Below, one piece after another: positions 45,689-61,334 of a stretch of 63,804 nt of DNA. The DNA is from an uncultured Thermotogae bacterium. GTDB taxonomy: Bacteria > Bipolaricaulota > Bipolaricaulia > UBA7950 > UBA9294. Position 1 is the stretch's first letter. Each line of letters begins with the position of its first letter. The notes under the pieces were generated by a model. The model ran no database searches and was not told where the DNA came from. It worked only from the letters and a program-made list of their open reading frames with translations. The position numbers were made by a program, and so were the translations under genes. The stretch covers positions 1 through 63,804 of the forward strand of contig CAYUSW010000007.1 in assembly GCA_964447445.1 (NCBI GenBank), in the 5' to 3' direction.

Positions 45689-48385
45689 CTAGTAGAGGGT
45701 GCCGCCGTCGATGACCTCGACCGGGCGTTGCTCGACGAGCACGTTCACACCGACCTCAGCCCTCTCTCCAGCGGCGAGACGAACGACGGTCTCCTCTTCC
45801 GGCAGAGAGTGGAATCGCGGAAGCTCATCGCGCGCCACGCGGATCGTCCACTCTCCCGGGCGCAGTCGATCGAAGTGGAACTCCCCCGCCGCATTGCTCA
45901 CCGTGCGCAGCGCCTCGCCATCCTTGCTCTCTAGGGTGATCGCAATCCCGGCAAGGACGGTCGTGGTCTGGCCCTCTCCCGCGAGGATGAGGCCGCTGCC
46001 CGCCTCGCTCGAACTCGGCGCCGGAACGACGTCGACCCGGCCGCGCAGGCTCGCTGCCTTGACGACAGGGAGAGAGACGTCGGCCGTCCCTCCGGCCTCG
46101 AGCTCCGCACGAGTCGCAGCGAGAGTGGGGAAAACGTAGTCCAGGGGTATGTTGGCAACGCGGAGCGAGTAGCTGCCTGGTGGAAGCGGGGAGAAGCGGA
46201 ATCGTCCGTCCGCGCCCGTGAGCGCGCGGGTCCCGTCGAGCACAAGAACGACGTTCCCAAGGCCGATCTCGCCCGGGTCGCTCCGTCCATTGCCGTTTGC
46301 GTCGACGAACACGCGCCCGGCGAGCCGTCCCTTGCTGAGGAGGAATGGAAGCGGCAGGTTGAGTTGGTAGTTGAGCGTTGTCGACCAGCCCAGCTCCAGC
46401 TGGGACGAAGCCGCGCGATCCCATCCCGTCGTTGTGGCAAGGGTGAAGTCGAGCCCATCCGCCAGCCGGAGCGCGAGGGACAGGCCGGCGTCGAACTGGT
46501 TGTCGGTGTTGCCAAGATTTAGCTCCACAGTGCACGGCGCGCCTGAGGAGTCGAAGCGAAACGCGACACTCGTCGATGCGTCCGTCACCACTTCGGTGAT
46601 GAGGTCCTTCGCCTGGCGATGAATCAGCGTGAGTCCTAGACTGTAGCTGTCGAAAGTCATTCCGCAGCCGGCGACGATCGTCACGTCGCGCGTCGATGCT
46701 CCGAGGACATGATCGATTCGATCGACGCGCTCCGCGGACAGGTTGTAGGGAAAGGCCCCGATGCCGCCGCGCGCTGCGAACGCGAGGCGCAGGCGGGCGA
46801 GATCCTTCCACGTCGGATTCTCGCCGTGATCCCAGAGAAGTCCGAACTCGCCGCGCAAGCTCGGCCCGTCGAGGACTGGCGTGCCCGACGCGTCGAGTTC
46901 GAGTCGCTCGCGGATCGTGCGCTCGACGAGGGGCGAGGCGCTGGTGTCGTCCCACGTGTGGGCGAACGACCCGCCGAGTGTCAGCTCAGGCAAGTGGAGC
47001 CGCTGGGCGATGAGGATCCCGGCCGAGTCGCCGTGAGCGCCGGGGAACTCCGTGCCCACCGAGAGCACTTTGACGTCGAGATAGAATGGCCCCGCATCCA
47101 CCTGGGAGGCCAGCAGCAACCCCTGGCTCGCGACGCTGTTGTGCTCGCCGAGCGCTCCCTCCAGCTGCAGTGATACAACATCGAACGGGCGTGTCGCGAC
47201 CGCGAGACTCCAGATCGACTCAGCGTCACCGGCACTTCGCGAGTCTACGTAAGCGAGGCCGACGTTCAGCGCCTCCGGGCCAATGACCAACCGCCCGCCG
47301 GCCCGAGTCTCGCGCCGGAGCCCGCCGCCGACGAACATGAGCCCGTAGTTCTCCGCGTCGATCTCCAGCACCCCGCCGCGGCAGGAGATCCCGACGAGAT
47401 CTGTCAGGTGCTTCGCGGTGTCGCCGATCGCGAACGAAGTCATGTCGCGACGGTACAGGATCGAGACCGAGTGGACCTCGAGAGGGGAGGGCCCGAACCA
47501 CGACCGCACGCCGAGGTCGACAGACAGGGAGCCATCCTCGACGTCGCCGGCGAACGATAGGCCGACGTCGCCCGAGACCTGACCGCTGAACACGTCTTCT
47601 CCCACGGCGAACCGGACGATCGCGGGCAGGTGCTGCATCAGTGACCCACCGACCGCGTCGGGCGGCGGTGGCAGCACTTCGGTCGTGAGAACCGCAGAGT
47701 CGGAGACCTGCCGATCGAGCCGCGCGGTCACCGTGAGAGCCATCCGCACGAGATCTCCCGGCGTCGCCTCGGCCGAGATGGCCTGGCGCGCGACGGCCTT
47801 GGCCTGCCCTCCGGGAGGAATATCGAGGAACGCTGGAACGATCTCGACTGTAGGCGCGGCGGGGGAGAAGGCCGAGAGTTCGAACTCGGCTCGGCTGTTG
47901 CCACAGTTGTAGATGACCAGGGGGTACACGACCAGATCGCCGGGCAGCGCTCCCTGGTCCTGGACGCCGACCGCAAGATGGACGCCGGCGACTGCCAAGA
48001 CCGTCACCGTCTGAAACGCCTCGGACGTCACAGAGGGATTGACCAGGGAGATGGCCTGAAGCGGCACCTCGTAGACCCCCGCGGGCGTGCCCGCCGGGCA
48101 GCGGAGGACCAGGAGAACCGTCTCCGAGGCTCCGGCGCTGACTTGAACATCCGTGCCAAGATCGATCTCGCTCCACCGGTGCGGCGGCATCGAGTGGACG
48201 GCGAACGTATCGGGGATCGACCCAGTGTTGGTGACGCGAACGACGAGCGTCAGCGTGCCCGGCGGAGAGACAGAGACACCGTGCGAAACGTTGTCGATCG
48301 ACACCGTAGCGAGCGCGGGCAGCGCGACAAGCGCTAGGACGAAGCTAGACAGCAAAGCAGTCTGGGCTGAAGGTCGTCGTCTCAT
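45689..48385 (-). CDS. 898-aa secreted mosaic protein: two CARDB/NEW3-like domains, about 430-aa unassigned beta-rich region, two carboxypeptidase-regulatory/SdrD-B-like domains
   Basis: Start is the ATG at 48385. Signal MRRRPSAQTALLSSFVLALVALPALA. N-terminal LTLVVRVTNTGSIPDTF and DLVVYPLVIYNCGNSRAEF modules. C-terminal GRVFVDANGNGRSDPGEIGLGNVVLVL...GRFRFSPLPPGSYSLRV and LRGRV...AAGEFHFDRLRPGEWTIRV. Confidence 0.7.
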   Translation of the reverse strand: MRRRPSAQTALLSSFVLALVALPALATVSIDNVSHGVSVSPPGTLTLVVRVTNTGSIPDTFAVHSMPPHRWSEIDLGTDVQVSAGASETVLLVLRCPAGTPAGVYEVPLQAISLVNPSVTSEAFQTVTVLAVAGVHLAVGVQDQGALPGDLVVYPLVIYNCGNSRAEFELSAFSPAAPTVEIVPAFLDIPPGGQAKAVARQAISAEATPGDLVRMALTVTARLDRQVSDSAVLTTEVLPPPPDAVGGSLMQHLPAIVRFAVGEDVFSGQVSGDVGLSFAGDVEDGSLSVDLGVRSWFGPSPLEVHSVSILYRRDMTSFAIGDTAKHLTDLVGISCRGGVLEIDAENYGLMFVGGGLRRETRAGGRLVIGPEALNVGLAYVDSRSAGDAESIWSLAVATRPFDVVSLQLEGALGEHNSVASQGLLLASQVDAGPFYLDVKVLSVGTEFPGAHGDSAGILIAQRLHLPELTLGGSFAHTWDDTSASPLVERTIRERLELDASGTPVLDGPSLRGEFGLLWDHGENPTWKDLARLRLAFAARGGIGAFPYNLSAERVDRIDHVLGASTRDVTIVAGCGMTFDSYSLGLTLIHRQAKDLITEVVTDASTSVAFRFDSSGAPCTVELNLGNTDNQFDAGLSLALRLADGLDFTLATTTGWDRAASSQLELGWSTTLNYQLNLPLPFLLSKGRLAGRVFVDANGNGRSDPGEIGLGNVVLVLDGTRALTGADGRFRFSPLPPGSYSLRVANIPLDYVFPTLAATRAELEAGGTADVSLPVVKAASLRGRVDVVPAPSSSEAGSGLILAGEGQTTTVLAGIAITLESKDGEALRTVSNAAGEFHFDRLRPGEWTIRVARDELPRFHSLPEEETVVRLAAGERAEVGVNVLVEQRPVEVIDGGTLY

Positions 48386-48526
48386 GGTCGGCGCTCTATT
48401 CAGAAGAATGACCGACGACCGGAATCTCGCTCCGGCCACGCCGCCCGTCGCTACGGGACGTTCGACCTGTTGGCCCTGGAAGTTCGCTGCACCCCGCCGG
48501 CGCTGCGACACCCTCCCATCCGGCGC

Positions 48527-49345
48527 CTAGAAGTTGAGCGTGTAGCGCGCCGCGCGCACGAAGTCGTCGCCGTTGTCGAAGAAAACGAGGCCCTGATACG
48601 GTCCGCTCGCAATGCTGCCGATGACGAGCCGCTGGCGGATGGAACAGCCGGGATAAATCCGCATTCGCGTCCCGTCGTACCGGCCGACGAGCGTGCCCAG
48701 CGCGTCGTAGAGTTCAAGCCAGACGTCCGGACGCAGCCATCGTTCGCCATTGTTCTCGACGTCCATCTGAAGCACGACTCCCTCGTCGGTTCGCAGCAGG
48801 CTATGCCCGACGATCTCTAAGCTTCTCTCGCCGGTGTCATCGATCGTCGTGACGATCTGGAACCCGTACTGGACGACGACACGCATCCCCACTTGGTCGG
48901 CGGCGGCCTCCGGCGCCGGGGACGAGTCCACAGGCTTGATGAGGATCATGCTCCAGTACGTGCCGACGAGCGCAGGATCGTTCGGGATCGTCACGCGGTA
49001 GCTCACCACGGCGATGGATTGGGCGGGCACGGTGACGCGCTCGCCGGCCGGCAGAGCGATCCATGGTGCATTGGAGCGCGGCGTGGATCCCGGCTCGGCG
49101 TAGGAGTTGGACCCATCGAAGAAGAAAAGGTAGTCGACCTGCGTCATCGTCACGTCGACGGCGGCGTCGCTCGAGTTGGACACGCTGATCGTCCCCTCGA
49201 GGATGTCGCCCGGCGCGCAGACGAATTCGGCGTCAAGCCCGCCGCTGACCGCGATCTGCGCGCCCGCGCCTGCGGCGGCCAGGGCGAACCACGCGGCCGC
49301 GGCAACGGCTCCGACGATCCACCGACCTACATCTCGCTGTCTCAC
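48527..49345 (-). CDS. Secreted two-beta-sandwich protein with DUF916/DUF3324-like layout (chaperone-like candidate)
   Basis: GTG at 49345 after GAGGAGGGG. Signal WIVGAVAAAAWFALAAAGAGA. Module 1: PGDILEGTISVSNSSDAAVDVTM...VTVPAQSIAVVSYRVTIP...GTYWSMILIKP. Module 2: LEIVG...VVLQMDVENNGERWL...MRIYPGCS...ASGPYQG. No C-terminal TM. The protein ends in RYTLNF. Confidence 0.6.
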   Translation of the reverse strand: MRQRDVGRWIVGAVAAAAWFALAAAGAGAQIAVSGGLDAEFVCAPGDILEGTISVSNSSDAAVDVTMTQVDYLFFFDGSNSYAEPGSTPRSNAPWIALPAGERVTVPAQSIAVVSYRVTIPNDPALVGTYWSMILIKPVDSSPAPEAAADQVGMRVVVQYGFQIVTTIDDTGERSLEIVGHSLLRTDEGVVLQMDVENNGERWLRPDVWLELYDALGTLVGRYDGTRMRIYPGCSIRQRLVIGSIASGPYQGLVFFDNGDDFVRAARYTLNF

Positions 49346-49455
49346 CGGTCCCCTCCTCTTTCCGCGCGTGCCACCGTGGACGGAGTCCGGCCTCAGAGTA
49401 CCCGAGGTCGCGGCGCACCCGCAATCCCTGCTGTCTCCTTGCCGTTCAAGAGGAA

Positions 49456-49477
49456 GGGGCGGCCGCTCGGCCGCCCC
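49456..49477 (-). terminator. Rho-independent terminator-like hairpin after the P1 gene
   Basis: A 9-bp GC stem (49456-49464 pairing with 49469-49477) with a 4-nt loop. On the minus strand it is followed by UUCCUCUUGAA. Confidence 0.5.
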
Positions 49478-49504
49478 CCGACTCCTTGACTCTCACTGTC
49501 AGGA

Positions 49505-50002
49505 CTACGTGTTGACGATCGTCAGGGTGAGCGTCGTCGAGCCCACGACGGGTGGCGTGGTCGAGGTGGCCGTCAGTCGGAAGCTGACCTGAAGGCCGGT
49601 CTCGTTCAGCGAGTCGATTCCCGTGACGAGATCGCTCGCGGACGTGAGCATCTCGACATAGCCCGGGCTCAAAGCGCCCGTCGGCGCCGCAAGAGCGACC
49701 TCGAGCAAGAGACCGATCGCATCCATGTCATCGTCGACCACACCCGTGATCTTGTGCGCGTCGGTCCCGCCGTTCGACGTGATCATGTACGTGACCGTCG
49801 TTGTGTCAATGGCCGGATCGGGGGCCGACCCGGCAGTCGCCGTGTCGATCACCAGGTCCACCAGCGCGACGTTGGTGTCGATCGCGTTGATCTCGTCCAC
49901 CTCGTAGTTGATGACGACGGTGCAGTACTCCTCGGCCAGAATCGCCCCGGCGATCGCGAGGACGATCACGCCCGCCAGAATCGCTACCGAACCACGCTTC
50001 AT
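49505..50002 (-). CDS. Secreted subunit-like protein P1 (165 aa), paralogue of P2 and of the C-terminal module of P3
   Basis: ATG after AGGAGGAGAGG. Signal MKRGSVAILAGVIVLAIAGAILA. Blocks VVINYEVDEINAIDTNVALVDLVID, TTVTYMITSN and KITG. C-terminal GSTTLTLTIVNT. Confidence 0.75.
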   Translation of the reverse strand: MKRGSVAILAGVIVLAIAGAILAEEYCTVVINYEVDEINAIDTNVALVDLVIDTATAGSAPDPAIDTTTVTYMITSNGGTDAHKITGVVDDDMDAIGLLLEVALAAPTGALSPGYVEMLTSASDLVTGIDSLNETGLQVSFRLTATSTTPPVVGSTTLTLTIVNT

Positions 50003-50206
50003 ACGCCTCTCCTCCTGTCTTCTTCCGATCCTGCCTGACTAGCAGCCACGGCACGCGGTGGATGCTGTACCTATTCCACGATGCAAGCAGATACGTTGAT
50101 CTCTCTTGAGACTGCAGACTGCCGCGCCTGGCCTCCGCCTTGGACTCCTCTCGTGGTCGCGGAGATCCGAGACCCCGCGCTCCCGGGTTCCTTCCGGAAG
50201 TGCCCC

Positions 50207-50215
50207 GAGTCTAGC
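50207..50215 (-). promoter_or_regulatory. Candidate extended -10 promoter in the long P2-P1 spacer
   Basis: Minus strand CCGTGCTAGACT, i.e. TGn followed by TAGACT, about 205 nt upstream of the P1 ATG. No convincing -35. Confidence 0.3.
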
Positions 50216-50294
50216 ACGGAGGTGCCGGCTGGGTCTGTGATCCCAGTCACCGATGAGTAACGCGCGAACTTGCCTGCCTAGTCTCGGGTCGAAG

Positions 50295-50792
50295 CTAGGC
50301 GTTCACGATGGTGAGTGTGAGTGTCGTTGAGTTGAGGGGCACGACGCCCGCCTCGACGTCTGCCGAGAGCTGGAAATCCATCCAGAGGTTTGCCTGTACG
50401 ACGGCGCCCACTCCCAACATGACGTCCTCCGGACCCGTCCACAGTCCCAGCGTCACGGGCGTGCACTCAGGGCTTGGACGCTCCATCTGGAGCGTGAGAT
50501 AGACTCCCGGCGGAAGCTCCGAGTCGATCGAGGCGACGATCTTCCGACTTCCGGCTGGCGCGTTGGTCGTGATGCTGTACGTCACCGTCGTCGAGTCCTC
50601 GGCAATGTCGAGGCCGACCCCAGCAGCACCCGAATCGAGAACAAGCGTCACAAGCTCGACGTTCGTCTCGATTGAGTCGATCTCCGTCACTTCGTAGGTG
50701 ATGACGACATGGGCTGTCTCGGCTCCGTGCGCCGACGCGGCGGACGCGGCTAGCAGTGCTAGGATGAGAGTGACGCTCCTCCGGGTGCTCAT
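50295..50792 (-). CDS. Secreted subunit-like protein P2 (165 aa)
   Basis: ATG at 50792 after GGGGAGGGG. Signal MSTRRSVTLILALLAASAASAHG. Blocks VVITYEVTEIDSIETNVELVTLVLD, TTVTYSITTN and KIVA. C-terminal NSTTLTLTIVNA. Confidence 0.75.
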   Translation of the reverse strand: MSTRRSVTLILALLAASAASAHGAETAHVVITYEVTEIDSIETNVELVTLVLDSGAAGVGLDIAEDSTTVTYSITTNAPAGSRKIVASIDSELPPGVYLTLQMERPSPECTPVTLGLWTGPEDVMLGVGAVVQANLWMDFQLSADVEAGVVPLNSTTLTLTIVNA

Positions 50793-50938
50793 CGTCGATC
50801 GCCCCTCCCCAGCCACGTTTCTCCCCAACGAGCCGAGAGCCTACGCAAAAGAACGGCGCTTGTCCATCTCCTCGCCAGAACTCCGGGTTGCGGCCGGCGC
50901 TGCCGCTGCCCGCAGATCGCGGTCTCTGGACGCTACGC

Positions 50939-51979
50939 CTATGTCACGACGATCGTCAGCGTCAGGTCTGTCGAGCCGAGCGCGACGACTCCAGCGGCAG
51001 CCGTCGCCTCGAGGCGACACGCGACGGTCAGGCCCTTCTCGGCTGTGGATTCGATCCCAAGGACGAGATCGTGGGCTTGCGTGTTCGACATCACGACGTA
51101 GCTCCCGCCGCTTGCCTGATAGGCGCCGCCAGGAGGCGGGGTGAGGCGGATGGCCAACGTGACCCCGGCGGGGAGCGCGGAGGTGATGCTGCCCGTGATC
51201 TTCTGGCTCGCGTCGGATGCCGTCCCGTTCGTCGTGATCTTGTACTTCGCGTCCGACGTGTACACGGTCGCCGGCGGACTTCCGGCGACCGCAGAGGAGA
51301 TCGTTAGAGTGGTCTGGTTGCCCGGTGCGGCTCCCGGAGAGAAGTACAGGATGCGCTCCACGGTCGCATTCACAGAGCAATCGCCCGCCGTGGCGAGCAA
51401 CGCTCCGTCGGAGACCCTGACGAGTCGGAACGACAAGAGCGTCGCGTAGGCCTGAATTGGGCAGTAGATGCCGAAGCCGGTCAGCTCGATCTGGATCGGG
51501 ATGTCCGATCCGTCCGCCGTTAGCGTGAATAGCGCGGCGTAACTCGTCGTCACGGTCTGGTACTCGGTGCCGCCTGCGCACGTCGTGCAATCCCCGCTCC
51601 CGGTCGTCCGCCTCGCGCCAACGGAGATCGCCCAGTCCCGCGTCTGCCGCGTCCCCGCCCACGAATTGTCGCGCCTCACTTGGACTTCGTACGTCACGCC
51701 CTCGACGTCCACGTCGACATCAAGGGTGACGATGTCCGCCCCGCTCTCGTACGTCGATTGGAGGTCGTTCCCAGCCGCACACGAGTCGGCACAGCCCGGA
51801 AGGCAACCGGATGGGGTGCAGGCGTTTGACTGTCCGATGGTCGGCGACCAGCTGCCGGTGGCGGCAATGCTTGCCGCCATCGCGCAGAACGATACGACCC
51901 AACCCGCAACCAGCGCAGCAACGAGCGTGAGGCGAGTTCTGGCTCGGCTCTGCAAACGAGTGCCATTCGGAAGCCTCAT
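50939..51979 (-). CDS. Secreted two-domain protein P3 (346 aa): Cys-rich N-terminal domain plus P1/P2-like C-terminal module
   Basis: ATG at 51979 after AAAGGAG. Signal or anchor RTRLTLVAALVAGWVVSFCAMAASIAA. Eight Cys between residues 54 and 201. The C-terminal module carries AKYKITTNG, QKITGSI and GSTDLTLTIVVT. Confidence 0.7.
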   Translation of the reverse strand: MRLPNGTRLQSRARTRLTLVAALVAGWVVSFCAMAASIAATGSWSPTIGQSNACTPSGCLPGCADSCAAGNDLQSTYESGADIVTLDVDVDVEGVTYEVQVRRDNSWAGTRQTRDWAISVGARRTTGSGDCTTCAGGTEYQTVTTSYAALFTLTADGSDIPIQIELTGFGIYCPIQAYATLLSFRLVRVSDGALLATAGDCSVNATVERILYFSPGAAPGNQTTLTISSAVAGSPPATVYTSDAKYKITTNGTASDASQKITGSITSALPAGVTLAIRLTPPPGGAYQASGGSYVVMSNTQAHDLVLGIESTAEKGLTVACRLEATAAAGVVALGSTDLTLTIVVT

Positions 51980-52040: not shown

Positions 52041-53789
52041 CTAGGCGCTCGATTGAGCCTTCGCCCACGTATCGCGCAACGTCGCGGTGCGATTGAACAC
52101 GAGGCGACCAGAAGCGGAATCGGTGTCGCAGGCAAAGTAGCCCTTTCGCTCAAACTGGAATCGGTCTCCCGGCTTCGCGTCGCCCAGAGAGGGTTCGAGC
52201 TTGCAGCCGCCGACCATCGCCAGCGACTTCGCATTCACGCCGGCAAGCCAGTCGTCACCCTCTTCCACCGATTCGGGCTTCTCCGCAGGGAAGAGGACAT
52301 CGTACAACCGAGCTTCGGCGTTCACGGCGTGAGGCACCGACACCCAGTGCAGCGTCGCCTTGACCTTTCGCCCGTCCGGCGAGTCGCCGCCGCGGGTCTT
52401 CGGGTCATAGGTGCAGCGGATCTCGACGACCTCGCCCGCTGCATCCTTCAGGACATCCTCGCAGCGGACGAAGTACGCGTACCGCAGCCGCACCTCGCGC
52501 CCCGGGGCGAGCCGGAAGTACTGGCTCGGCGGATCCTCCATGAAGTCCTCGCGCTCGATCCATAGCTCGCGAGAGAACGGGACCTTCCGCGTCCCAGCCG
52601 CCGTATTCTCGGGGTTGTTCACCGCGTCGAGCCAATCGACCTCACCCTCAGGATAGTTGGTGATGACGACGCGAACGGGATCTAGGACGGCCATGGCCCG
52701 CGCCGCACGCAGGTTCAAGTCCTGTCGCACGCAGTGTTCAAGGTAGGCGAAGTCGACCATCCCCTCCGCCTTCGTCACCCCGACGCCGCGAATGAATGCT
52801 CGAATCGCCTCAGGCGTGTAGCCGCGCCGACGCAGGCCGCGCAAGGTCGGCATTCGTGGATCGTCCCAGCCGTGCACGTGCCCTTCCTCGACAAGTCGGC
52901 GCAGCTTGCGCTTGCTCATCACCGTGTGGGTGACGTTCAGGCGGCTGAACTCGATCTGCCGTGGCCGGCACGGTACGGGGAGGTTGTCGAGGAACCAGTC
53001 ATAGAGCGGGCGATGGTTCTCGAACGCGAGGTCGCACAACGAGTGCGTGATTCCCTCGATCGCGTCAGATTGCCCGTGGGTCCAGTCGTACGTCGGGTAG
53101 ATGCACCACGAGTCGCCGGTCCGGTGATGGGTGGCGCGGAGGATCCGGTACATCACCGGGTCGCGCATGTTGAGGTTCGGATGCGCCATGTCGATCTTGG
53201 CGCGCAGCGTCCGCGAGCCGTCGGGGAATTCTCCCGCGCGCATGCGACGGAACAGGTCGAGGCTCTCCTCCGGCGATCGGTTCCGGTACGGGCTGTCCTT
53301 TCCGGGGGGAGTGACCGCCTGTCCGGCGCGCTCCATCGCGGTCCCGCGGTACTTGCCCACTTCCTCCGGCGAGAGATCGCACACGTACGCCTTGCCCTCG
53401 CGGATCAGGAGTTCGGCCCACTCATAGAGCTGCTCGAAGTAGTCCGAAGCGAAGAAGAGCCTGTCGCCCCAATCGACGTCAAGCCAGCGCATGTCGTCGA
53501 TGATCCCGTCGACGAACTCCTGTTCTTCCTTCGCAGGGTTCGTATCGTCGAAGCGGAGGTTGAACATCCCGCCGTGCTCTTGCGCGATCCCGTAGCTCAG
53601 AAGAAAAGCCTTCGCGTGTCCGATGTGGATGTAGCCGTTCGGCTCCGGCGGGAAACGGGTATGGACTCGCCCATCGTTCTTCCCGGCCGCTACGTCGGCT
53701 GCGACGATCTCGCGAATGAAATCCAATCCTGGACCCTCTCGGCGACCCTCTACTGCCCCATGGCACCGACCTCCTGGTCGTGACTCCAC
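52041..53789 (-). CDS. glnS: Glutamine--tRNA ligase
   Basis: [39 protein letters not shown] (HIGH) and VMSKRKL (KMSKS). The start is GTG at 53789 or TTG at 53726. Confidence 0.9.
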
Positions 53790-53931
53790 CCCGCCCCTCC
53801 GGCGGGGACAAGGCGTGAGTCTACCTCAACGTCTCGCGAGTTGCCTAGGGCGCTTCGGCTTGTCTTTCAGGCAGCCCCGGCCTCTGCCGCCCGCGTGGAA
53901 CCGCGGGAGCCTGTTCCGGTACCCTTGTCAG

Positions 53932-54717
53932 ATGGCCTTCTGGAAGTGGAGCGAATGGCGACGCGGCCGCATCCGCCGCCGCGGCTTCCCCGCCGCGTGG
54001 ACCGACATCCTTCGCCGAACGTTCCCTCGCCACGCTCGCCTGTCCCCGGAAGACCGCGCGGAACTCGACGGACTCGTCCTGGTCTTCCTGGCTGAGAAGC
54101 GGTTCGATGGCGCGGCCGGGCTTGAGGTCACCGACGAGATTCGCGTCACGATTGCCGCTCAAGCCTGCCTCCTCCTGCTGCATCGGGGTAGCGACATCTA
54201 CCCGGGACTCGCCTCGGTGATCGTCTACCCAGGTGAGTATCTGGTGCGACAGCGAGTGTGCGACGAGGTCGGGCTCGTTCGCGAGGGCACGCAGGTGCGG
54301 CTTGGCGAGACGGGCGCCCGCGGCGCGGTGGTCGTGTCGTGGGACGCAACCCTGCGGGGCGCTTCGGGCGCGAACGGAGGCAGGAACATCGTCTTCCATG
54401 AGTTCGCTCACCTCCTTGACGCCCAGTCCGGAGGGTTCGATGGCGCTCCCCCTCTCGCGTCTCCTGCGCGGTACAGCCAGTGGGCGCGCGTGATGGCCGA
54501 TGAGTATGCTGAGCTCCGTGCCCGCTCCGAGAGCCACGAGCCCGGCGCCCTCGATTCGTACGGCGCCACAAGCCCCGCGGAGTTCTTCGCCGTCGCGACC
54601 GAACGCTTCTTTCAGGAGCCTCACGGGTTGTCGCGCGACGTGCCTGCGCTGTTCGACGAGCTGGCGCACTACTACCGGCAGGACCCTCGGCTCTGGGAGA
54701 GTCCGCCGTCCGGTTGA
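53932..54717 (+). CDS. MtfA-like zinc peptidase (M90 family)
   Basis: Start is the ATG at 53932. HEFAHLLD zinc motif, and the downstream SPAEFFAVATERFF typical of MtfA-family proteins. Confidence 0.75.
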   Translation: MAFWKWSEWRRGRIRRRGFPAAWTDILRRTFPRHARLSPEDRAELDGLVLVFLAEKRFDGAAGLEVTDEIRVTIAAQACLLLLHRGSDIYPGLASVIVYPGEYLVRQRVCDEVGLVREGTQVRLGETGARGAVVVSWDATLRGASGANGGRNIVFHEFAHLLDAQSGGFDGAPPLASPARYSQWARVMADEYAELRARSESHEPGALDSYGATSPAEFFAVATERFFQEPHGLSRDVPALFDELAHYYRQDPRLWESPPSG

Positions 54718-55653: not shown

Positions 55654-57843
55654 CTAGCGCAGTTCTTCCATCACCAAGTCGTCAAACTGGATCCGCGCGT
55701 CCCGCGTCGTCGAGAGGTTCTCGACATACAGGCCTACATAGCCTCCTTCGGCTGCCAACCAGGGATCGTCTTCTAGCGGGACGACGAGCACCATCGTGCC
55801 GTTGAGCTCGCACACGACACTCTCCCCGGTCAGGGTCATGGCCAGCCGGTTCTTCTCCGGGTTCATGACCGACGCCGGGCACGGCGTCCAGTCGCTGCGC
55901 CACATCACCCCTGCGGATGCGCTCCACTCGGTGAAACTCACCTCGCCAGAACTCCTGACGAGGAAGCTGCAATCCTCCTCATCATTGCCCCGTATCTTCG
56001 CAACGATTGCGACCACTACCTCTGCTCCCCGCTCCCATTCCGCGTCGATCGACACTCGTAGCTGGTCGAGGAAGGGTCCCGCCGTGGTGCTCCAGACGGT
56101 GAGGCTCTCCTCTGGCTGGAGAGCCATCCGATACTCGCCTCCGGCGACTTCGATCTTCCCCGCTGCATCGGCGCCCTGATACCAGTCCCCGCCGTCTTCG
56201 AAGCTCTCTGTGTTCACGAGCGTGCCCGTGCACACTTGGGCCTGAGTCGCTTGGAGAGCTTCGAGTTGGCCGAGGACCAGTGAGCCTGGCGAGAGGTCGA
56301 GGGGATTGCCGCGTAGGTCGATCCAGTATCCTGACTTCGCCTTCAGGGCCGCCACGAGGGGGGCCAGATCCGCGATCTGGTTGCCCGAGAGATCGATGTT
56401 CGCATAGAAGCAGCTGAAGTCGTAGCCGCCATAGACCCCGTCGGACGAATCTGCCTCAAGCCAGCCGGACGGGAATCCTTCAAGCGTGGCAATCCGATTC
56501 CCGGAGAGGTCGAGCCACCAGAGCCTCCCCATGCCCTTGAAAGGCTTGAGAGACGCGAGTTCGTTGCCTTGAAGTTGCAGCGTCTGCAGATTCTCCAGCT
56601 CGATAAGGGGACTCATGTCCCGGACGTGATTCCCTGCCAGCACGAGGTACTCGAGAGTTTCGAGCCTTGCGAGTGACGAGACATCCAAGACCTCGTTGTA
56701 GGCCAGGTCCAAAGCCCAGAGCGCAGGGAGACGTCCCAGGGGGGAGACGTCCGTAATGCCGTTGTGATACAGAATGAGCGTTCTGAGGCCCGTCAACGCG
56801 GAGAGAGGCGAGATGTCTCGCACCTCGTTGACCCCGAGCCCCAAGTCAGACAGACGCATCAGACGGGCCAGTGGGGAGACATCGCGGATGAGGTTTCCCT
56901 CAGCCTCCAGCACCTTGAGCTTCGTGAGGCCTGCGAGAGGAGTGAGATCCTCGATCCGATTCCTCGACACGTCCAGGCCCACGAGCTCCGTCAGGGAGGC
57001 CAGCGGCTCGACGTCGTCGATGTCGTTCCACGAGGCGTCAAGCCGCCAGAGTGACGTCATCCCGGACACGACGGATAGGTCGCGAGCTCCAACTGCCTTC
57101 ATGCGCAGGTCTGTCAGGCGGGTGAGTCGGGCGAGGGGCGTGAGGTCCGCCAAGGAGTTGAATGAGACGTCGAGTGTCGTGAGGTTCACAAGCGCTGCAA
57201 GAGGGCTGATGTCGGAGATGTAGTTCCCTTCGACGTAGAGCTCCTCGAGCGCGCTGAGGTCACGAAGAGGGGATAGGTCCTCAAACATGTTCAGGCCAAG
57301 ATCCAGGTGTCTCAGCTTCGCCAATTCGGCCAGAGGGCTCAGGTCCGTGATCTGATTGTCAGAGACACCAAGAACCGTCAAATCTGTTGCTTGCTCGAGG
57401 CCCGCGAGAGAAGCGATCTCCCGCCCGTCCGCGTCCAACTGCGTGATCGAAGCTAGCTCCGCCCCGCGGATTGGGCCCGCAAGTCGAGGCACGGCTCCGC
57501 GCAGCGCGTCTTCCAGCCCCGGGTCGGCGAAGGCGACGGGGCCGTCTCTGTCCGATCCGGTGTACTGCCACTCGTAGTCCACAAGACTCGCGTTGCCGGG
57601 CCTCCAACTGAGACGGAAGGAGGTCCCAACCGGAACTCGGCCGCCGGAGAGGGTGATCTCCGCCGCCTTCCCCGTTGTGGACACGTTGGGCAGGCTGTCG
57701 TCGTGGTCATCGATCGTGACCTTCTCCGAGAAGACCACGCGCAAACCGGTCGCCTGATGACCGGTCGCGTTGGGCAACGACTCCGCCAGACAGCCGCTGG
57801 CGGCGCAGGCGGCCAAGAGGACGGACGCAATAAGGGCTTGCAC
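55654..57843 (-). CDS. Leucine-rich-repeat (internalin-like) lipoprotein with N-terminal beta domain and about 190-aa C-terminal domain
   Basis: GTG at 57843, 6 nt after AAGGAGG. Short signal with lipobox VLLAAC. About 16 LRRs of 22 aa (L..L..L..L.L..N.I.D(I/V/L)SPL). The C-terminal domain is of uncertain family. Confidence 0.8.
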   Translation of the reverse strand: MQALIASVLLAACAASGCLAESLPNATGHQATGLRVVFSEKVTIDDHDDSLPNVSTTGKAAEITLSGGRVPVGTSFRLSWRPGNASLVDYEWQYTGSDRDGPVAFADPGLEDALRGAVPRLAGPIRGAELASITQLDADGREIASLAGLEQATDLTVLGVSDNQITDLSPLAELAKLRHLDLGLNMFEDLSPLRDLSALEELYVEGNYISDISPLAALVNLTTLDVSFNSLADLTPLARLTRLTDLRMKAVGARDLSVVSGMTSLWRLDASWNDIDDVEPLASLTELVGLDVSRNRIEDLTPLAGLTKLKVLEAEGNLIRDVSPLARLMRLSDLGLGVNEVRDISPLSALTGLRTLILYHNGITDVSPLGRLPALWALDLAYNEVLDVSSLARLETLEYLVLAGNHVRDMSPLIELENLQTLQLQGNELASLKPFKGMGRLWWLDLSGNRIATLEGFPSGWLEADSSDGVYGGYDFSCFYANIDLSGNQIADLAPLVAALKAKSGYWIDLRGNPLDLSPGSLVLGQLEALQATQAQVCTGTLVNTESFEDGGDWYQGADAAGKIEVAGGEYRMALQPEESLTVWSTTAGPFLDQLRVSIDAEWERGAEVVVAIVAKIRGNDEEDCSFLVRSSGEVSFTEWSASAGVMWRSDWTPCPASVMNPEKNRLAMTLTGESVVCELNGTMVLVVPLEDDPWLAAEGGYVGLYVENLSTTRDARIQFDDLVMEELR
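56287..57462 (-). repeat. Coding tandem repeat: about 66-bp LRR units
   Basis: Periodic 22-aa units such as ITDLSPLAELAKLRHLDLGLNM, ISDISPLAALVNLTTLDVSFNS and IEDLTPLAGLTKLKVLEAEGNL. The repeats are diverged at the DNA level. Confidence 0.8.
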
Positions 57844-57883
57844 AGGCTCCTCCTTTAGGGCAGCACTCTGTACCTGTCGTGAT

Positions 57884-57892
57884 ACTCTAGCA
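57884..57892 (-). promoter_or_regulatory. Candidate extended -10 promoter of the LRR lipoprotein gene
   Basis: Minus strand ACGTGCTAGAGT, i.e. TGn followed by TAGAGT, 41 nt upstream of the GTG at 57843. No convincing -35. Confidence 0.35.
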
Positions 57893-58039
57893 CGTCCTCC
57901 CTTATCTTGGGGCTCGGGCGGGCAACCCGCGCCTCCGGAGGATCGGCACGCCAAGCTCAGCCGGGGGGGGAGGAGAAGCACGCCGTGGGTCGGCGCACTT
58001 CTGCTGGCGGCGGCGGTGGACACGACGTACCCTCGCGGC

Positions 58040-59269
58040 GTGAACGCACCTGAGCTTGCGCCGACTCCTGTCTCCGGCCGGATCAACCTGCCTCTCGCGA
58101 CGTCCGCAGTCCTCGTCGCGATCTCTAGCGGCGGGCTCGGCCTGCTCGTTCAGCTCTTTCTCAAGGAGCGTGGCGCCTCGGTGTTCCTCATCAGCGCCGC
58201 ATCGAGCCTCGGTTCGGTGGGTGTCCTCGCAGGGAGCTACTTCTGGGGCCGACTGTCGGATCGCGCCGGCCGGCGGGGCTTCCTCATCCTGACCTCCGCT
58301 GGCGTTGCGGCTTCCATCGCGGTTCTGGCGCCGCTTCCCGGCAACGGAGTCATCGTCGCCATGTCGTTCGCCCGCGCGTTCATGGACATCGGCTTCGCGT
58401 CGATGAGCCTTGCCATGATCTCGGCGGCCAGCGTCACTGCGACTCGGGCTCGCGGCATGTCGTACAACTCGTCCGCGCGTTCGCTCGGGTTCTCCCTCGG
58501 CGCTCTGGGCGCTGGCGCCGTGCTGGAGGGGCTCGGCTACCAGAATGGGTTCATCCTCATGGCGTTCCTCCCCGTGGCGGCTGCGCTGTTCATCCTCCGC
58601 CTACCGCGCGAGCCGAGGCCGGTCCCCATGCCCCGGCAGCTCATGTGGCATGCCCTCCGCGAAGCCGGGCTGGTGCGCCTCTACCTTGGGACAATCCTCC
58701 GTCAGTTCGGGACGAACGGCGCGTTTGCCCTCCTCTACGTCTACATGGATGACCTCGGCATCCCGCCGATCCTGATGGGCACTGTCAGCTCGCTCAACAC
58801 TCTCACGCAGGTGGTGGCTCTTGTCGCGTTCGGATGGGTCGCTGACCGAATCGGCAGGCGTAGGGTGTTCCTGCTTGGCTTCGGCCTCTCGGCGCTCCTG
58901 CCGTGCATTCTCGCTATGGCGAACGGCGTTCCGATGATGGCTCTGAGTTACGTTGTCCTGGGGATAGGTTTCAGTTCCCTCTACATCGGGTCGACGGCCC
59001 ACATTGGCGACCGAGTGTCGGTCGAACGGCAGGGGACGATGCTGGGGCTGTTCGAGATGGCGCGCGGGTTCGGCGGCCTCTTGGGACCGCTCCTTGCGGG
59101 CGTTCTCGTGCCGCTGGTGGGGTTCCGCGGCATGTTCCTCACGATGGCCGGCGTGTCGGGCGCCGGCTTCCTGCTGGTCATCGGGGAGCGCTTTCCGTTC
59201 CCCGGGCGCGGCCCGAGCGCGCCGAAGCCGGAGGTCCGATCGCCGGCTGTCGACGGCGGTTCGACCTAG
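58040..59269 (+). CDS. MFS transporter
   Basis: About 12 hydrophobic segments and the loop motif GRLSDRAGRRG between TM2 and TM3. The start is uncertain: GTG at 58040 or GTG at 58016. Confidence 0.75.
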   Translation: MNAPELAPTPVSGRINLPLATSAVLVAISSGGLGLLVQLFLKERGASVFLISAASSLGSVGVLAGSYFWGRLSDRAGRRGFLILTSAGVAASIAVLAPLPGNGVIVAMSFARAFMDIGFASMSLAMISAASVTATRARGMSYNSSARSLGFSLGALGAGAVLEGLGYQNGFILMAFLPVAAALFILRLPREPRPVPMPRQLMWHALREAGLVRLYLGTILRQFGTNGAFALLYVYMDDLGIPPILMGTVSSLNTLTQVVALVAFGWVADRIGRRRVFLLGFGLSALLPCILAMANGVPMMALSYVVLGIGFSSLYIGSTAHIGDRVSVERQGTMLGLFEMARGFGGLLGPLLAGVLVPLVGFRGMFLTMAGVSGAGFLLVIGERFPFPGRGPSAPKPEVRSPAVDGGST

Positions 59270-60287: not shown

Positions 60288-61334
60288 CTAAGCGCCGCGC
60301 CGCGAGCGACGCTTGAGTGGCCAGGTCAAGCCCAACACGATCTGATACAGAAGAGTCCAGAACACCGCGAGGACGACCGTGATGCCCGCTGTGCCCTTTG
60401 GGTACGCAAGTTGGGCCATGCCCGAGCGCGACGTGTCCGTCCTCTCCGGGCGCGTTGTGACCCCGCGGATGAGAGCCGCCGGTGTCATCTCAGTCGTCTG
60501 TCCCATGACCCCGCCGGCCATGGCGGCCACACAGTCAATGACGATGTTGGCGTCACCTGTCCGAAGCTCGCCGAACAGGTCGCGGGCGAACAACTTGCGT
60601 TCGACCGGGTCGAGGCCGGAGAACCCGACGGCCACGTCCAGCGTGCCGACTCGTCCGATCGGGCAGTAGCTGTCCGTCACGACGACAGGAAGATCCACGC
60701 CGAATCGCTCTTGCAGGTCGCCGCGCAGCCGCCGCGCGCTGGCGCACGGATCGACCGGGAGGCGCGTCAAGTACCCTTCCGGGGAGTTCATCAGGTCGAT
60801 CCCCGCCTCGTTGAGGACTGTCGCGTGCATCGAGTGATAGAAGACGAAGCGCTCCACGCGGTGCGCCCCCTCGGCGGTCGGCCGTCCGTCGGCGGCGAGG
60901 TCCTCCGTGACTGCCGCGCTTCTCCGCCATCGAGAGATGAAGCGCATCGGCAAGAGCGCAGGGGCTCCTGCGTCTTCGAACATCAGTTCTAGCTTGCGCG
61001 GATCCTTTGAGAAGAGCTTCGCGACGAGTCTCGCCCGCAGCGACGGTCGGACGTCGGCCAGACGCACCGTGCGACCCTCGAACAGCGCCGTCACTTTCGA
61101 CGAGACGGCGAGGATGTCGCCCGGCTCCGGAACGATCTCCGCGCGCGCCATGGCGTCCGCGAGGACTGCCGCCAATGTGGTTCCCACCGCGTCAGCGGGA
61201 GTGAGTGGGCGGGGGACGGTCAGTCCGAAGGCGTGAAACGCGCGAACCCTGGAAGGCGCGTGTTTCTCCGTTGCGAGAGCCTGCTCCATGTGCGCCATGA
61301 CACGAAGGATATCGAACCCTCGGCGCCCCTTCAC
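60288..61334 (-). CDS. CofE-like (F420-0:gamma-glutamyl ligase fold) protein with C-terminal TM helix
   Basis: GDILAVSSKVTALFEGRTV, GIDLMNSPEG, VVVTDS and AAMAGGVMGQTTEMTPAALIRG, plus the terminal ITVVLAVFWTLLYQIVLGL. The GTG start forms a GTGA overlap with the CapA-like stop. Confidence 0.65.
   Translation of the reverse strand: MKGRRGFDILRVMAHMEQALATEKHAPSRVRAFHAFGLTVPRPLTPADAVGTTLAAVLADAMARAEIVPEPGDILAVSSKVTALFEGRTVRLADVRPSLRARLVAKLFSKDPRKLELMFEDAGAPALLPMRFISRWRRSAAVTEDLAADGRPTAEGAHRVERFVFYHSMHATVLNEAGIDLMNSPEGYLTRLPVDPCASARRLRGDLQERFGVDLPVVVTDSYCPIGRVGTLDVAVGFSGLDPVERKLFARDLFGELRTGDANIVIDCVAAMAGGVMGQTTEMTPAALIRGVTTRPERTDTSRSGMAQLAYPKGTAGITVVLAVFWTLLYQIVLGLTWPLKRRSRRGA

What the first reader, a model, noticed from the sequence alone, without database searches (positions are those of the whole stretch)
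45689..51979. Five consecutive secreted-protein genes that look like an uncharacterised surface-fibre (pilus-like) assembly locus
Seen in sequence:
- On the minus strand (51979 down to 45689), five back-to-back genes all open with signal peptides. They are P3 (346 aa), P2 (165 aa), P1 (165 aa), a 272-aa two-module protein and an 898-aa mosaic protein.
- P1, P2 and the last roughly 140 aa of P3 are paralogues. P1 and P2 share the block VVI.YEV.EI..I.TNV.LV.LV.D, and all three share a TVTY/KYKIT..N block and a KI block.
- All three end in an almost identical hydrophobic final strand: GSTTLTLTIVNT, NSTTLTLTIVNA and GSTDLTLTIVVT.

Established knowledge: small subunits, a two-domain subunit, a two-beta-sandwich protein and a very large beta-rich protein together form the parts list of chaperone-usher pili and of Firmicute Csc/WxL surface complexes.

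What is missing: I see no PapC-type usher signature, no LPXTG or sortase, no type IV prepilin motif and no conserved WxL tryptophans.

Inference: this is a subunit-polymerising or surface-display system of a class I cannot match to a described one. The locus sits between glnS and an Opp operon, with only 61 nt and a weak hairpin separating it from glnS.
Basis: partly seen in the sequence, partly recalled or inferred. Interest (0 to 1): 0.85.

Follow-up and report, generated by a model that had tools for sequence, protein, structure and literature searches.

The report
Undescribed chaperone–usher-like surface fibre locus
These five genes are one copy of a gene cluster found across more than twenty bacterial phyla but never described: small secreted subunits, a two-domain helper protein and a large outer-membrane barrel protein, which most likely build a surface fibre much as chaperone–usher pili are built, using unrelated or only remotely related parts.

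Summary
Five minus-strand genes (346, 165, 165, 272 and 898 aa) all encode signal peptides. P1, P2 and the C-terminal half of P3 are paralogues (E 1e-9 to 1e-22).

The set is a conserved three-part module, S(n)–C–U:
- In 163 related loci, 126/126 with room upstream carry S genes.
- 94/104 with room downstream carry U.
- No other neighbour is conserved.
- Carriers span more than 20 phyla, almost all uncultured MAGs.

S is a family with no Pfam, NCBIfam or PDB sequence match. Type A has an extra N-terminal beta-strand. Type B lacks it and normally sits just before C. P3 is a B–A fusion.

C is a remote homologue of the Firmicute WxL-interacting protein (DUF916+DUF3324; hhalign 92–95%). It lacks the membrane anchor and shows no similarity to FimC.

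U has a C-like tandem Ig module, then about 22 long beta-strands with porin-type hits in orthologues, then two transthyretin-like domains. FimD and PapC ushers are the best barrel-containing fold matches, but the model is weak.

Best reading (about 0.55): a chaperone–usher-like fibre pathway, probably using donor-strand exchange. Polymerisation is inferred, not shown. Novelty: new variant of a known kind.

The parts
50939..51979 (-). P3, 346 aa: signal peptide, then a type-B subunit domain, then a type-A subunit domain (a natural B-A fusion; proposed tip module)
   Evidence: ORF; 346-aa gene call. Type-B HMM matches residues 10-198 (3.8e-43) and type-A HMM matches residues 190-344 (2e-34). It has 10 Cys and no Pfam hit.
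51386..51952 (-). P3 type-B domain (ATGSW...DLQSTYES...YEVQVRRDNSW). Like all type-B subunits, it lacks the N-terminal extension strand.
50948..51412 (-). P3 type-A domain. It is preceded by a linker of about 12-14 residues and a degenerate N-terminal strand (ATVERILYF).
50295..50792 (-). P2, 165 aa: type-A subunit. It has a signal peptide, the N-terminal strand HVVITYEVTEI and the C-terminal strand TTLTLTIVNA.
49505..50002 (-). P1, 165 aa: type-A subunit. It has a signal peptide, the N-terminal strand TVVINYEVDEI and the C-terminal strand TTLTLTIVNT.
   Evidence: The AF2 model gives a low-confidence beta-sandwich.
49454..49479 (-). Perfect 11-bp G+C stem-loop (GGGGGGCGGCC-GAGC-GGCCGCCCCCC-type) starting 26 nt after the P1 stop. 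It may be an attenuator or an mRNA-stabilising hairpin between the subunit genes and the chaperone gene.
   Evidence: seen in both the MFE and the centroid structure. The simple terminator scan did not call it because it has no T-run.
48527..49345 (-). C, 272 aa: secreted two-Ig-domain protein. It is a remote homologue of the WxL-interacting protein (DUF916+DUF3324) without the C-terminal TM helix. Proposed periplasmic chaperone.
   Evidence: No similarity to FimC.
45689..48385 (-). U, 898 aa: proposed outer-membrane assembly platform
47675..48304 (-). U residues 28-237: two CARDB/NEW3-type beta-sandwiches, homologous as a tandem to C
   Evidence: AF2 pLDDT about 80; NPCBM_assoc and FixG_C hits; hhalign of C family against U family gives Prob 90.9, E 1.1e-6.
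46367..47623 (-). U residues 255-673: about 22 long amphipathic beta-strands, proposed transmembrane beta-barrel. A stretch of about 60 residues (343-403) is not modelled and follows the sixth or seventh modelled strand.
   Evidence: Strand pattern. Porin_4 hits in 9/42 orthologues (best 6.7e-10) and OMP_b-brl hits in 6/42; the OMP_b-brl and Porin_OmpG hits seen in individual orthologues fall in the central region. Weak OmpG match. FimD and PapC are the top barrel-containing fold hits.
45734..46330 (-). U residues 686-884: two transthyretin-like (CarboxypepD_reg / SdrD_B) beta-sandwich domains

Best explanation
The five genes are one instance of a conserved, undescribed three-component envelope system, S(n)-C-U.

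Proposed mechanism:
1. The small S proteins are exported by Sec. They are beta-sandwich subunits.
2. C, a soluble two-Ig-domain relative of the Firmicute WxL-interacting protein, binds them in the periplasm, probably by lending a beta-strand.
3. C hands them to U. U is an outer-membrane beta-barrel with a C-like tandem Ig module on one end and two transthyretin-like domains on the other.
4. U threads the subunits to the surface.
5. Type-A subunits carry an N-terminal extension strand that completes the preceding subunit next to its C-terminal strand (donor-strand exchange). Type-B subunits lack this strand, so they can only sit at the distal tip.

In this window the tip subunit B is fused to an A domain (P3), and P2 and P1 are shaft subunits.

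Shown: the gene set, its conservation and order, the C-WxLIP homology, the domain layout of U, and the A/B difference.

Inferred: chaperoning by strand donation, passage through U, polymerisation, and tip position.
For: Conservation:
- 375 species genomes and at least 517 metagenome contigs encode a C relative.
- The C profile finds 810 clusters (50% identity) at E<=1e-30.
- In 163 loci, 126/126 with room have S upstream and 94/104 have U downstream. In the first 86 loci the median C-to-U spacing is 0 nt.
- Only S, C and U are conserved neighbours.

Subunit order and types:
- The gene next to C is type B, without the N-terminal strand, in 120/153 loci.
- More distal S genes have the strand in 166/186.
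- Type A has about 12 extra mature N-terminal residues.

Subunit termini:
- S ends 1-4 residues after a conserved alternating C-terminal strand in 190/218.
- In coupling analysis, Y32 of the N-terminal strand and R152 at the start of the C-terminal strand form the third strongest non-local coupling. There is a weak antiparallel ladder around it.

The helper protein C:
- The family profile hits the solved EfmWxLIP1 at E 6.6e-7 over both domains.
- hhalign gives Prob 94.8 and 92 against two WxLIPs.
- For WxLIP, published AlphaFold models show one of its strands completing the WxL beta-sandwich (PMC10599100).

The large protein U:
- Its N-terminal tandem is homologous to C.
- Its centre has about 22 long strands, with porin-type Pfam hits in orthologues.
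- FimD and PapC ushers are the best barrel-containing Foldseek hits, E 3e-11 to 6e-6 over 750-940 columns.

The P3 fusion:
- P3 has B's last strand, then a linker, then A's N-terminal strand. This is the topology used in engineered self-complemented pilins (the comparison to engineered pilins rests on established knowledge).

All five proteins have signal peptides and no other anchor.
Against: - No structure or complex prediction shows strand exchange.
- Both AF2 models are low confidence because of shallow permitted alignments: pLDDT 54 for P1 and 55 for U.
- TM-scores to ushers are only 0.15-0.23, and Ig-repeat proteins score equally well.
- The P1 model has no significant fold match.
- Sequence profiles show no relation to FimA, FimC or FimD.
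- The coupling signal cannot separate contacts within one subunit from contacts between subunits, and it rests on only about 177 effective sequences.
- In 22/153 loci the gene next to C does have the N-terminal strand.
- The barrel-type Pfam hits shown individually are below the curated cut-offs, and the window's own U has no barrel-type hit.
- Whether the source organism has an outer membrane was not established.
- Intergenic gaps here (141-292 nt) are much longer than in relatives, so co-transcription is unproven.
Confidence: 0.55

Rival explanations
1. A non-polymerising surface-display or adhesion complex, the diderm counterpart of Firmicute WxL/Csc clusters. C docks individual S proteins onto the envelope, U is the outer-membrane anchor or exporter, and no fibre is formed.
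For: C is homologous to WxLIP. The published role of WxLIP is scaffolding of WxL proteins on the wall, not pilus assembly (PMC10599100). Several paralogous small secreted proteins plus one large protein also describes WxL clusters.
Against: S has no similarity to WxL domains. C has lost the membrane anchor. There is no LPXTG protein. The A/B difference, which is confined to one N-terminal strand and comes with a fixed gene order, is hard to explain without strand exchange.
Confidence: 0.2
2. A true but extremely diverged member of the classical chaperone-usher superfamily (for example an archaic Csu-like branch). Under this reading U descends from ushers and the mechanism is the classical one.
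For: The operon logic and sizes are the same: subunits of about 165 aa, a protein of about 270 aa and one of about 900 aa. FimD and PapC are the best barrel-containing fold hits. About 22 strands is close to the 24 of ushers, and a stretch that could not be modelled follows roughly the sixth strand, where ushers carry the plug (the usher topology rests on established knowledge).
Against: No PapD_N/C, Usher, Fimbrial or SCPU Pfam hit in 57 C, 42 U or 97 S members. hhalign probabilities against FimC, FimD and FimA are 1% or less. C is instead related to WxLIP. U's terminal domains are CARDB-type and transthyretin-type, unlike usher NTD and CTDs.
Confidence: 0.12
3. A solute- or polymer-uptake device. 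U is a specialised porin and S and C are periplasmic or surface binding proteins, functionally linked to the neighbouring Opp-type transporter.
For: Porin-type hits in U orthologues. The window locus lies next to an SBP_bac_5/BPD_transp_1 ABC transporter.
Against: The transporter adjacency is not conserved; only S, C and U recur. Two to six paralogous S genes with conserved terminal strands and a fixed A-B order do not fit binding proteins. No ligand-binding family hits.
Confidence: 0.06

Closest known systems
Classical chaperone-usher pili (Pap/Fim; archaic Csu type)
   Same: The operon grammar is the same: several subunits of about 160 aa, then a two-beta-sandwich protein of about 270 aa, then an outer-membrane protein of about 900 aa with beta-sandwich domains on both sides of a large barrel, sometimes followed by further subunits. 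One subunit class lacks the N-terminal extension, as tip subunits do. A conserved C-terminal strand lies close to the C-terminus. FimD and PapC are the top barrel-containing fold hits.
   Different: No sequence or profile similarity for any of the three parts. The chaperone candidate belongs to the WxLIP lineage. U starts with a chaperone-like tandem Ig module and ends with transthyretin-like domains. The system occurs mostly in uncultivated, non-proteobacterial phyla.
Firmicute WxL / Csc surface-protein clusters (WxLIP = DUF916+DUF3324, small and large WxL proteins, LPXTG protein)
   Same: C is a remote homologue of WxLIP across both domains. It is clustered with several small secreted beta-rich proteins. 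WxLIP is predicted to complete the WxL fold with one of its strands (PMC10599100).
   Different: No WxL domains or motifs. No TM helix on C. No LPXTG protein. An outer-membrane barrel protein is added. WxL domains are more than 91% Firmicute (PMC9772566), whereas this system spans more than 20 other phyla.
Pam pili of Candidate Phyla Radiation bacteria (bioRxiv 10.64898/2026.03.03.709456)
   Same: A recently found donor-strand-exchange pilus with non-classical Ig-like pilins. It has a single-domain tip pilin lacking the linker strand and two-domain chaperones encoded in the operon.
   Different: Pam chaperones are membrane-anchored and there is no usher, because CPR bacteria lack an outer membrane. 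Pam pilins are reported as CPR-exclusive and two-domain.
Type V pili (FimA/Mfa of Bacteroidia)
   Same: Strand-exchange polymerisation of beta-sandwich subunits outside the classical pathway.
   Different: Type V pilins are lipoproteins matured by a protease. Here there is no lipobox, and a dedicated C and U are present instead.

Membership tests
Classical chaperone-usher pathway | PapD-like periplasmic chaperone (Pfam PapD_N/PapD_C) | tested here: not met
   No such hit for the window protein or among 57 family members at E<=0.1. The profile finds no PapD, FimC or Caf1M chain in the PDB at E<=10. hhalign against FimC gives Prob 1%.
Classical chaperone-usher pathway | Usher protein (Pfam Usher, PapC_N, PapC_C) | tested here: inconclusive
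   Sequence tests are negative: no Usher hit in 42 members and hhalign against FimD gives Prob 0.5%. The fold search ranks FimD and PapC highest among barrel proteins (E to 3e-11), but TM is only 0.15-0.23 on a pLDDT-55 model.
Classical chaperone-usher pathway | Pilin subunits of the Fimbrial/SCPU families | tested here: not met
   No Fimbrial, SCPU or DUF4402 hit in 97 S members. hhalign against FimA gives Prob 0.5%. No PDB sequence hit.
Classical chaperone-usher pathway | Operon of subunits + chaperone + usher | tested here: met
   The order A(n)-B-C-U is conserved in 163 loci.
Classical chaperone-usher pathway | Donor-strand complementation and exchange between incomplete Ig-like subunits | not testable with these tools
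   No multimer prediction was available. Indirect support only: the A/B N-terminal strand difference, coupling between the N-terminal and C-terminal strands and the P3 fusion topology.
WxL / Csc cluster | WxLIP protein (DUF916 PGBD + DUF3324 HBD) | tested here: met
   Met at the level of remote homology. PDB EfmWxLIP1 E 6.6e-7 over both domains. hhalign Prob 94.8 and 92. 12/57 members give sub-threshold PF06030 hits. The window protein alone does not reach Pfam cut-offs.
WxL / Csc cluster | C-terminal transmembrane helix on WxLIP | tested here: not met
   All 57 family members end directly after the second domain. No TM-like segment.
WxL / Csc cluster | At least two WxL-domain proteins (dual W-x-L motifs) | tested here: not met
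   No WxL Pfam hit in the window proteins or in 97 S members. No W-x-L motifs in P1-P3. hhalign of the S family against two WxL-locus proteins gives Prob <5%.
WxL / Csc cluster | LPXTG/sortase-anchored partner (frequent, not obligatory) | tested here: not met
   No LPXTG motif in the five proteins. No sortase among the conserved neighbours.
Type V pili | Lipoprotein signal on pilins | tested here: not met
   No lipobox in any of the five proteins.
Type IV pili | Class III (prepilin) signal peptide | tested here: not met
   No G/FTLIE-type motif.
Pam pili (CPR) | PamA/B-type two-domain pilins and membrane-anchored PamC/D chaperones | not tested
   No Pam sequences were on hand. By description they differ: TM-anchored chaperones, no outer-membrane component, and restriction to CPR bacteria.

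The most novel reading that the evidence does not exclude
S-C-U is a third, independently built chaperone/usher-type pilus pathway. It uses a WxLIP-type chaperone and a usher-like barrel that carries its own chaperone-like module. It is spread across more than 20 mostly uncultivated diderm phyla. It would also be the diderm sister (or ancestor) of the Firmicute WxL clusters, which would then be reinterpreted as remnants of a donor-strand assembly system rather than simple wall-binding scaffolds.
Probability: 0.35. Interest if true: 0.9.

Novelty: new variant of a known kind. Interest (0 to 1): 0.78.

Why it matters
Surface fibres decide how bacteria attach, aggregate and meet hosts or prey. 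Almost nothing is known about them in the candidate and deep-branching phyla that dominate sediments and groundwater.

This module is abundant there. At least 375 species-level genomes carry it, and its helper protein forms 810 sequence clusters. Every part is annotated as hypothetical.

If it is a fibre pathway, three things follow:
- It adds a new class to the short list of pilus assembly systems.
- It gives the first functional handle on the small-subunit family, which has no Pfam, NCBIfam or solved-structure match here.
- It links the poorly understood WxL surface clusters of enterococci, listeriae and lactobacilli to a strand-donation mechanism.

It also offers a concrete test case for whether usher-like platforms evolved more than once.

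Tried and rejected
Structure prediction:
- The permitted shallow alignments gave low-confidence models for P1 and U.
- The P1 fold search was uninformative.

Searches that found nothing or failed:
- Single-sequence PDB searches found nothing useful.
- The 57-sequence alignment was too diverse to seed a locus scan, so a 15-sequence subset was used.
- The word-indexed homology search found only 5 relatives of P1 and 8 of U. Relatives were recovered from neighbouring genes instead.
- The promoter and terminator scan gave nothing informative. Intergenic folds were not better than shuffles, apart from one hairpin.

Apparent findings that were dropped:
- Two apparent extra fusion proteins (L064, 373 aa; L052, 363 aa) turned out to be ORF-calling artefacts and were discarded.
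- A link to the neighbouring Opp transporter or glnS was rejected because it is not conserved.
- A paper mentioning DUF916 in metalloprotein neighbourhoods was irrelevant.

Coupling analysis gave only a weak signal.

The source organism's taxonomy and envelope type were not determined.

Full report
**1. Observation**

The region holds five consecutive minus-strand ORFs:
- P3: 50939-51979, 346 aa.
- P2: 50295-50792, 165 aa.
- P1: 49505-50002, 165 aa.
- A 272-aa protein, here called C: 48527-49345.
- An 898-aa protein, here called U: 45689-48385.

Independent assemblies of the same sequence carry gene calls of exactly these sizes. All five products begin with a typical Sec signal. None has a lipobox, LPXTG, W-x-L pair, prepilin motif or additional TM segment.

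P1, P2 and the C-terminal half of P3 are paralogues. The phmmer E-values are 1.5e-22 for P1-P2, 5e-12 for P1-P3 and 2e-9 for P2-P3.

The flanks are a class-Ic Gln/Glu-tRNA synthetase, 61 nt away, and an SBP_bac_5/BPD_transp_1 ABC transporter. The rest of the window is ordinary chromosome: alaS, dnaE, enolase and RtcB. G+C content is uniform at about 65%.

**2. What the curated libraries say**

Pfam and NCBIfam find nothing for P1, P2, P3 or C.

U has a weak NEW3/CARDB-type match near the N-terminus and clear SdrD_B/CarboxypepD_reg matches near the C-terminus. Residues of about 240-680 stay unassigned.

Single-sequence PDB searches are empty apart from the SdrD B-domain match in U.

**3. The set is a conserved module**

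C has 92 relatives at 33-51% identity in the word-indexed protein collection. All are unnamed or annotated as hypothetical.

Its neighbourhood in three distant contigs repeats the same pattern: two to four proteins of about 160-220 aa, then a protein of about 270 aa, then one of about 900-1240 aa.

A scan of one genome per species found 375 genomes with a C relative. The 80 loci kept come from Bipolaricaulota, Thermotogae-labelled MAGs, Armatimonadota, Zixibacteria, Ignavibacteria, Bacteroidota, Planctomycetota, Verrucomicrobiota, Gemmatimonadota, several deltaproteobacterial orders, Atribacteria, Synergistota, Dictyoglomi, Aminicenantes, KSB1, Krumholzibacteriota and others. Almost all are MAGs.

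A profile of the C family finds 810 50%-identity clusters at E<=1e-30 among 1.84 billion representatives.

I called ORFs on all loci and searched them with the window proteins and iterated HMMs. The small proteins (S) and the large protein (U) are homologous across loci. In the pooled 163 loci:
- 126 of 126 with at least 1.2 kb upstream have S genes directly upstream of C on the same strand.
- 94 of 104 with at least 3.2 kb downstream have U directly downstream.

In the first 86 loci the median distance from the C stop to the U start is 0 nt. The exceptions are mostly fragmented genes.

Clustering all neighbours shows that only S, C and U recur. Two-component or sigma-54 regulators appear in about a third of loci, and a long protein with no Pfam match appears in eight. 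The glnS and Opp adjacency of the window is not conserved.

**4. The subunits (S)**

S proteins are about 160 aa, and 172 of 182 have a signal peptide. Two regions are strongly conserved:
- The mature N-terminus, consensus AN-T-x-x-QTVTYxVxAINEIsVSGnPGxLTInsATAGSqP.
- The C-terminus, consensus s-x-TRTVTLTLTD.

The C-terminal alternating strand ends 1-4 residues before the C-terminus in 190 of 218 members.

None of 97 members hits WxL, Fimbrial, SCPU, DUF4402 or any other informative Pfam family. The family profile finds nothing in the PDB.

Two subtypes exist:
- Type A carries the first strand, QTVTYxV.
- Type B begins about 12 residues later (IsIxAtGGWxETID...) and has an insert (WRVDvRRsDtnW).

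Their positions are ordered:
- The gene next to C is type B in 120 of 153 loci, and in 11 more it is an A-like protein whose N-terminal strand region does not match.
- Genes further from C have the strand in 166 of 186 cases.

The commonest layouts are A-B-C-U and A-A-B-C-U. Some loci have an extra A gene after U.

The window departs from this order. P3 is a genuine in-frame fusion of a type-B domain (residues 10-198) and a type-A domain (190-344), and it is placed first. Two other apparent fusions proved to be ORF-calling artefacts.

A mean-field coupling analysis used 207 type-A sequences (effective number 177). It puts Tyr32 of the N-terminal strand and Arg152 at the start of the C-terminal strand as the third strongest non-local coupling. 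A faint antiparallel ladder surrounds it: 30/31-154 and 27-158. So the extra strand lies beside the C-terminal strand. The method cannot tell whether this contact is within one subunit or between two.

It is a low-confidence beta-sandwich (pLDDT 54) with the first 57 residues unplaced, and it has no significant fold match.

**5. The 272-aa protein (C)**

The family has two beta-rich halves and ends directly after the second, so it has no membrane anchor.

Its profile matches the solved structure of Enterococcus faecium WxLIP1 over both domains, at E 6.6e-7 (profile positions 41-267, chain residues 28-256).

hhalign gives:
- Probability 94.8% (E 4.9e-8, 211 columns) against that sequence.
- Probability 92% (E 6.4e-7, 216 columns) against an independent protein annotated as DUF916 and DUF3324 domain-containing, from an E. 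wangshanyuanii plasmid.
- Probability 1% against FimC.

Twelve of 57 members give sub-threshold hits to the WxLIP_PGBD model.

C is therefore a remote, anchorless relative of the WxL-interacting protein. For WxLIP, Hassan et al. reported confident AlphaFold complexes in which a WxLIP hairpin becomes a strand that fills a gap in the WxL beta-sandwich (PMC10599100). That is donor-strand complementation in all but name.

The S proteins themselves show no similarity to WxL-locus proteins.

**6. The 898-aa protein (U)**

All 42 aligned orthologues share two C-terminal transthyretin-like domains. Most share N-terminal CARDB/NEW3/FixG_C-type domains.

The N-terminal tandem is homologous to C as a unit: hhalign 90.9%, E 1.1e-6, 175 columns.

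The centre is poorly conserved in sequence but consists of regularly spaced amphipathic beta-segments. Barrel-type signals in this family are:
- Nine of 42 orthologues hit Porin_4 (best 6.7e-10) and six hit OMP_b-brl.
- The OMP_b-brl and Porin_OmpG hits seen in individual orthologues fall in the central region.
- The family profile weakly matches OmpG.

It shows:
- Two confident N-terminal sandwiches, residues 28-237.
- About 22 strands of 11-15 residues joined by short turns, residues 255-673, at low confidence.
- An unmodelled stretch, residues 343-403, after the sixth or seventh modelled strand.
- Two C-terminal sandwiches.

Foldseek places FimD and PapC ushers as the best barrel-containing matches, with E from 3e-11 to 6e-6 and alignments over 750-940 columns. 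TM-scores are only 0.15-0.23, and multi-Ig proteins score similarly. I treat this as suggestive only. Sequence profiles do not connect U with FimD.

**7. Interpretation**

The anatomy is a secreted-subunit set, a soluble two-Ig-domain partner from a lineage predicted to donate a strand, and an outer-membrane barrel with periplasmic beta-sandwich modules at both ends. The three are always together and in fixed order. This is the grammar of a chaperone-usher pathway.

One subunit class differs from the others essentially by lacking a single N-terminal strand. That strand couples to the C-terminal strand. This is what donor-strand exchange predicts: a subunit that can accept a strand but not donate one can only be the distal tip.

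P3 joins a B domain through a 12-14-residue linker to the N-terminal strand of an A domain. This is the arrangement protein engineers use to make self-complemented pilins (established knowledge), and it fits a pre-assembled tip.

I therefore put about 0.55 on a chaperone-usher-like fibre pathway. The rivals are:
- About 0.2 on a non-polymerising display complex analogous to WxL clusters.
- About 0.12 on the system being a true, very diverged branch of the classical superfamily.
- About 0.06 on an uptake device.

Polymerisation, chaperoning and passage through U are inferences. None was tested directly.

**8. Comparison with what is known, and novelty**

By sequence the system fails the membership tests for classical chaperone-usher systems (chaperone and pilins not met, usher inconclusive). 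It also fails the tests for WxL clusters: no WxL domains, no anchor and no LPXTG protein. It shares operon logic with the former and the C lineage with the latter.

WxL domains are reported as more than 91% Firmicute (PMC9772566).

Full-text searches for related descriptions found nothing on this module. They did find a 2026 preprint on CPR 'Pam' pili. That preprint shows that non-classical donor-strand pili with operon-encoded two-domain chaperones do exist outside Proteobacteria.

Source annotations for the members seen are 'hypothetical protein' or generic domain names.

I rate it a new variant of a known kind. It is an undescribed, widespread pathway that most likely works like chaperone-usher assembly but is built from different or only remotely related parts.

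**9. Caveats**

- The window's organism was not identified, and its envelope type is unknown.
- The intergenic gaps here (141-292 nt) are much longer than in relatives.
- One strong G+C hairpin follows P1, so operon structure may differ.
- Both structure models are weak because only sequences from the capped homology searches could be used.

Noticed in passing
window 49454-49479 (-): A perfect 11-bp G+C stem with a 4-nt loop starts 26 nt after the P1 stop and is followed by UUCCUCUU. It might attenuate or stabilise the subunit transcript ahead of the C gene, as happens after major pilin genes in classical operons.
   Followed up: partly
window 48386-48526, 49346-49504, 50003-50294, 50793-50938: The intergenic gaps inside this locus are 141-292 nt, whereas in related loci the genes abut or overlap (median C-to-U distance 0 nt). 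No significant structure or promoter was found in the gaps.
   Followed up: partly
window 28479-32795 (+): A 1438-aa protein combining a right-handed beta-helix, four PKD domains and a caspase (Peptidase_C14) domain. This is an unusual secreted-type architecture.
   Followed up: no
window 55654-58086 (-): An 810-aa protein made largely of leucine-rich repeats (LRR_4, LRR_8).
   Followed up: no
L054 (uncultured Bacteriovoracaceae MAG), 1-20798: Two complete S-C-U systems lie in tandem on one 20-kb stretch with at least 15 S paralogues. This is the largest expansion seen.
   Followed up: no
L003:5318-8299 and seven other loci: A long protein (543-993 aa) with no Pfam match sits just upstream of the S genes in eight loci. 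It could be a lineage-specific adhesin or an extra component.
   Followed up: no
L001:6262-7647 and about 25 other loci: Response regulators, histidine kinases or sigma-54 activators lie next to the module in about a third of loci, hinting at signal-controlled expression. None is present near the window copy.
   Followed up: no
L091:5815-11656 (Enterococcus wangshanyuanii plasmid): This is a plasmid-borne WxL locus. WxLIP homologues occur on 106 plasmids in the collection, so this Firmicute relative of C is mobile.
   Followed up: no
window 53716-54717 (+) and 61331-62581 (-): A Peptidase_M90 (MtfA-like) gene lies divergent from glnS, and there is a PGA_cap capsule-synthesis family gene. Neither is linked to the module in other genomes.
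   Followed up: no
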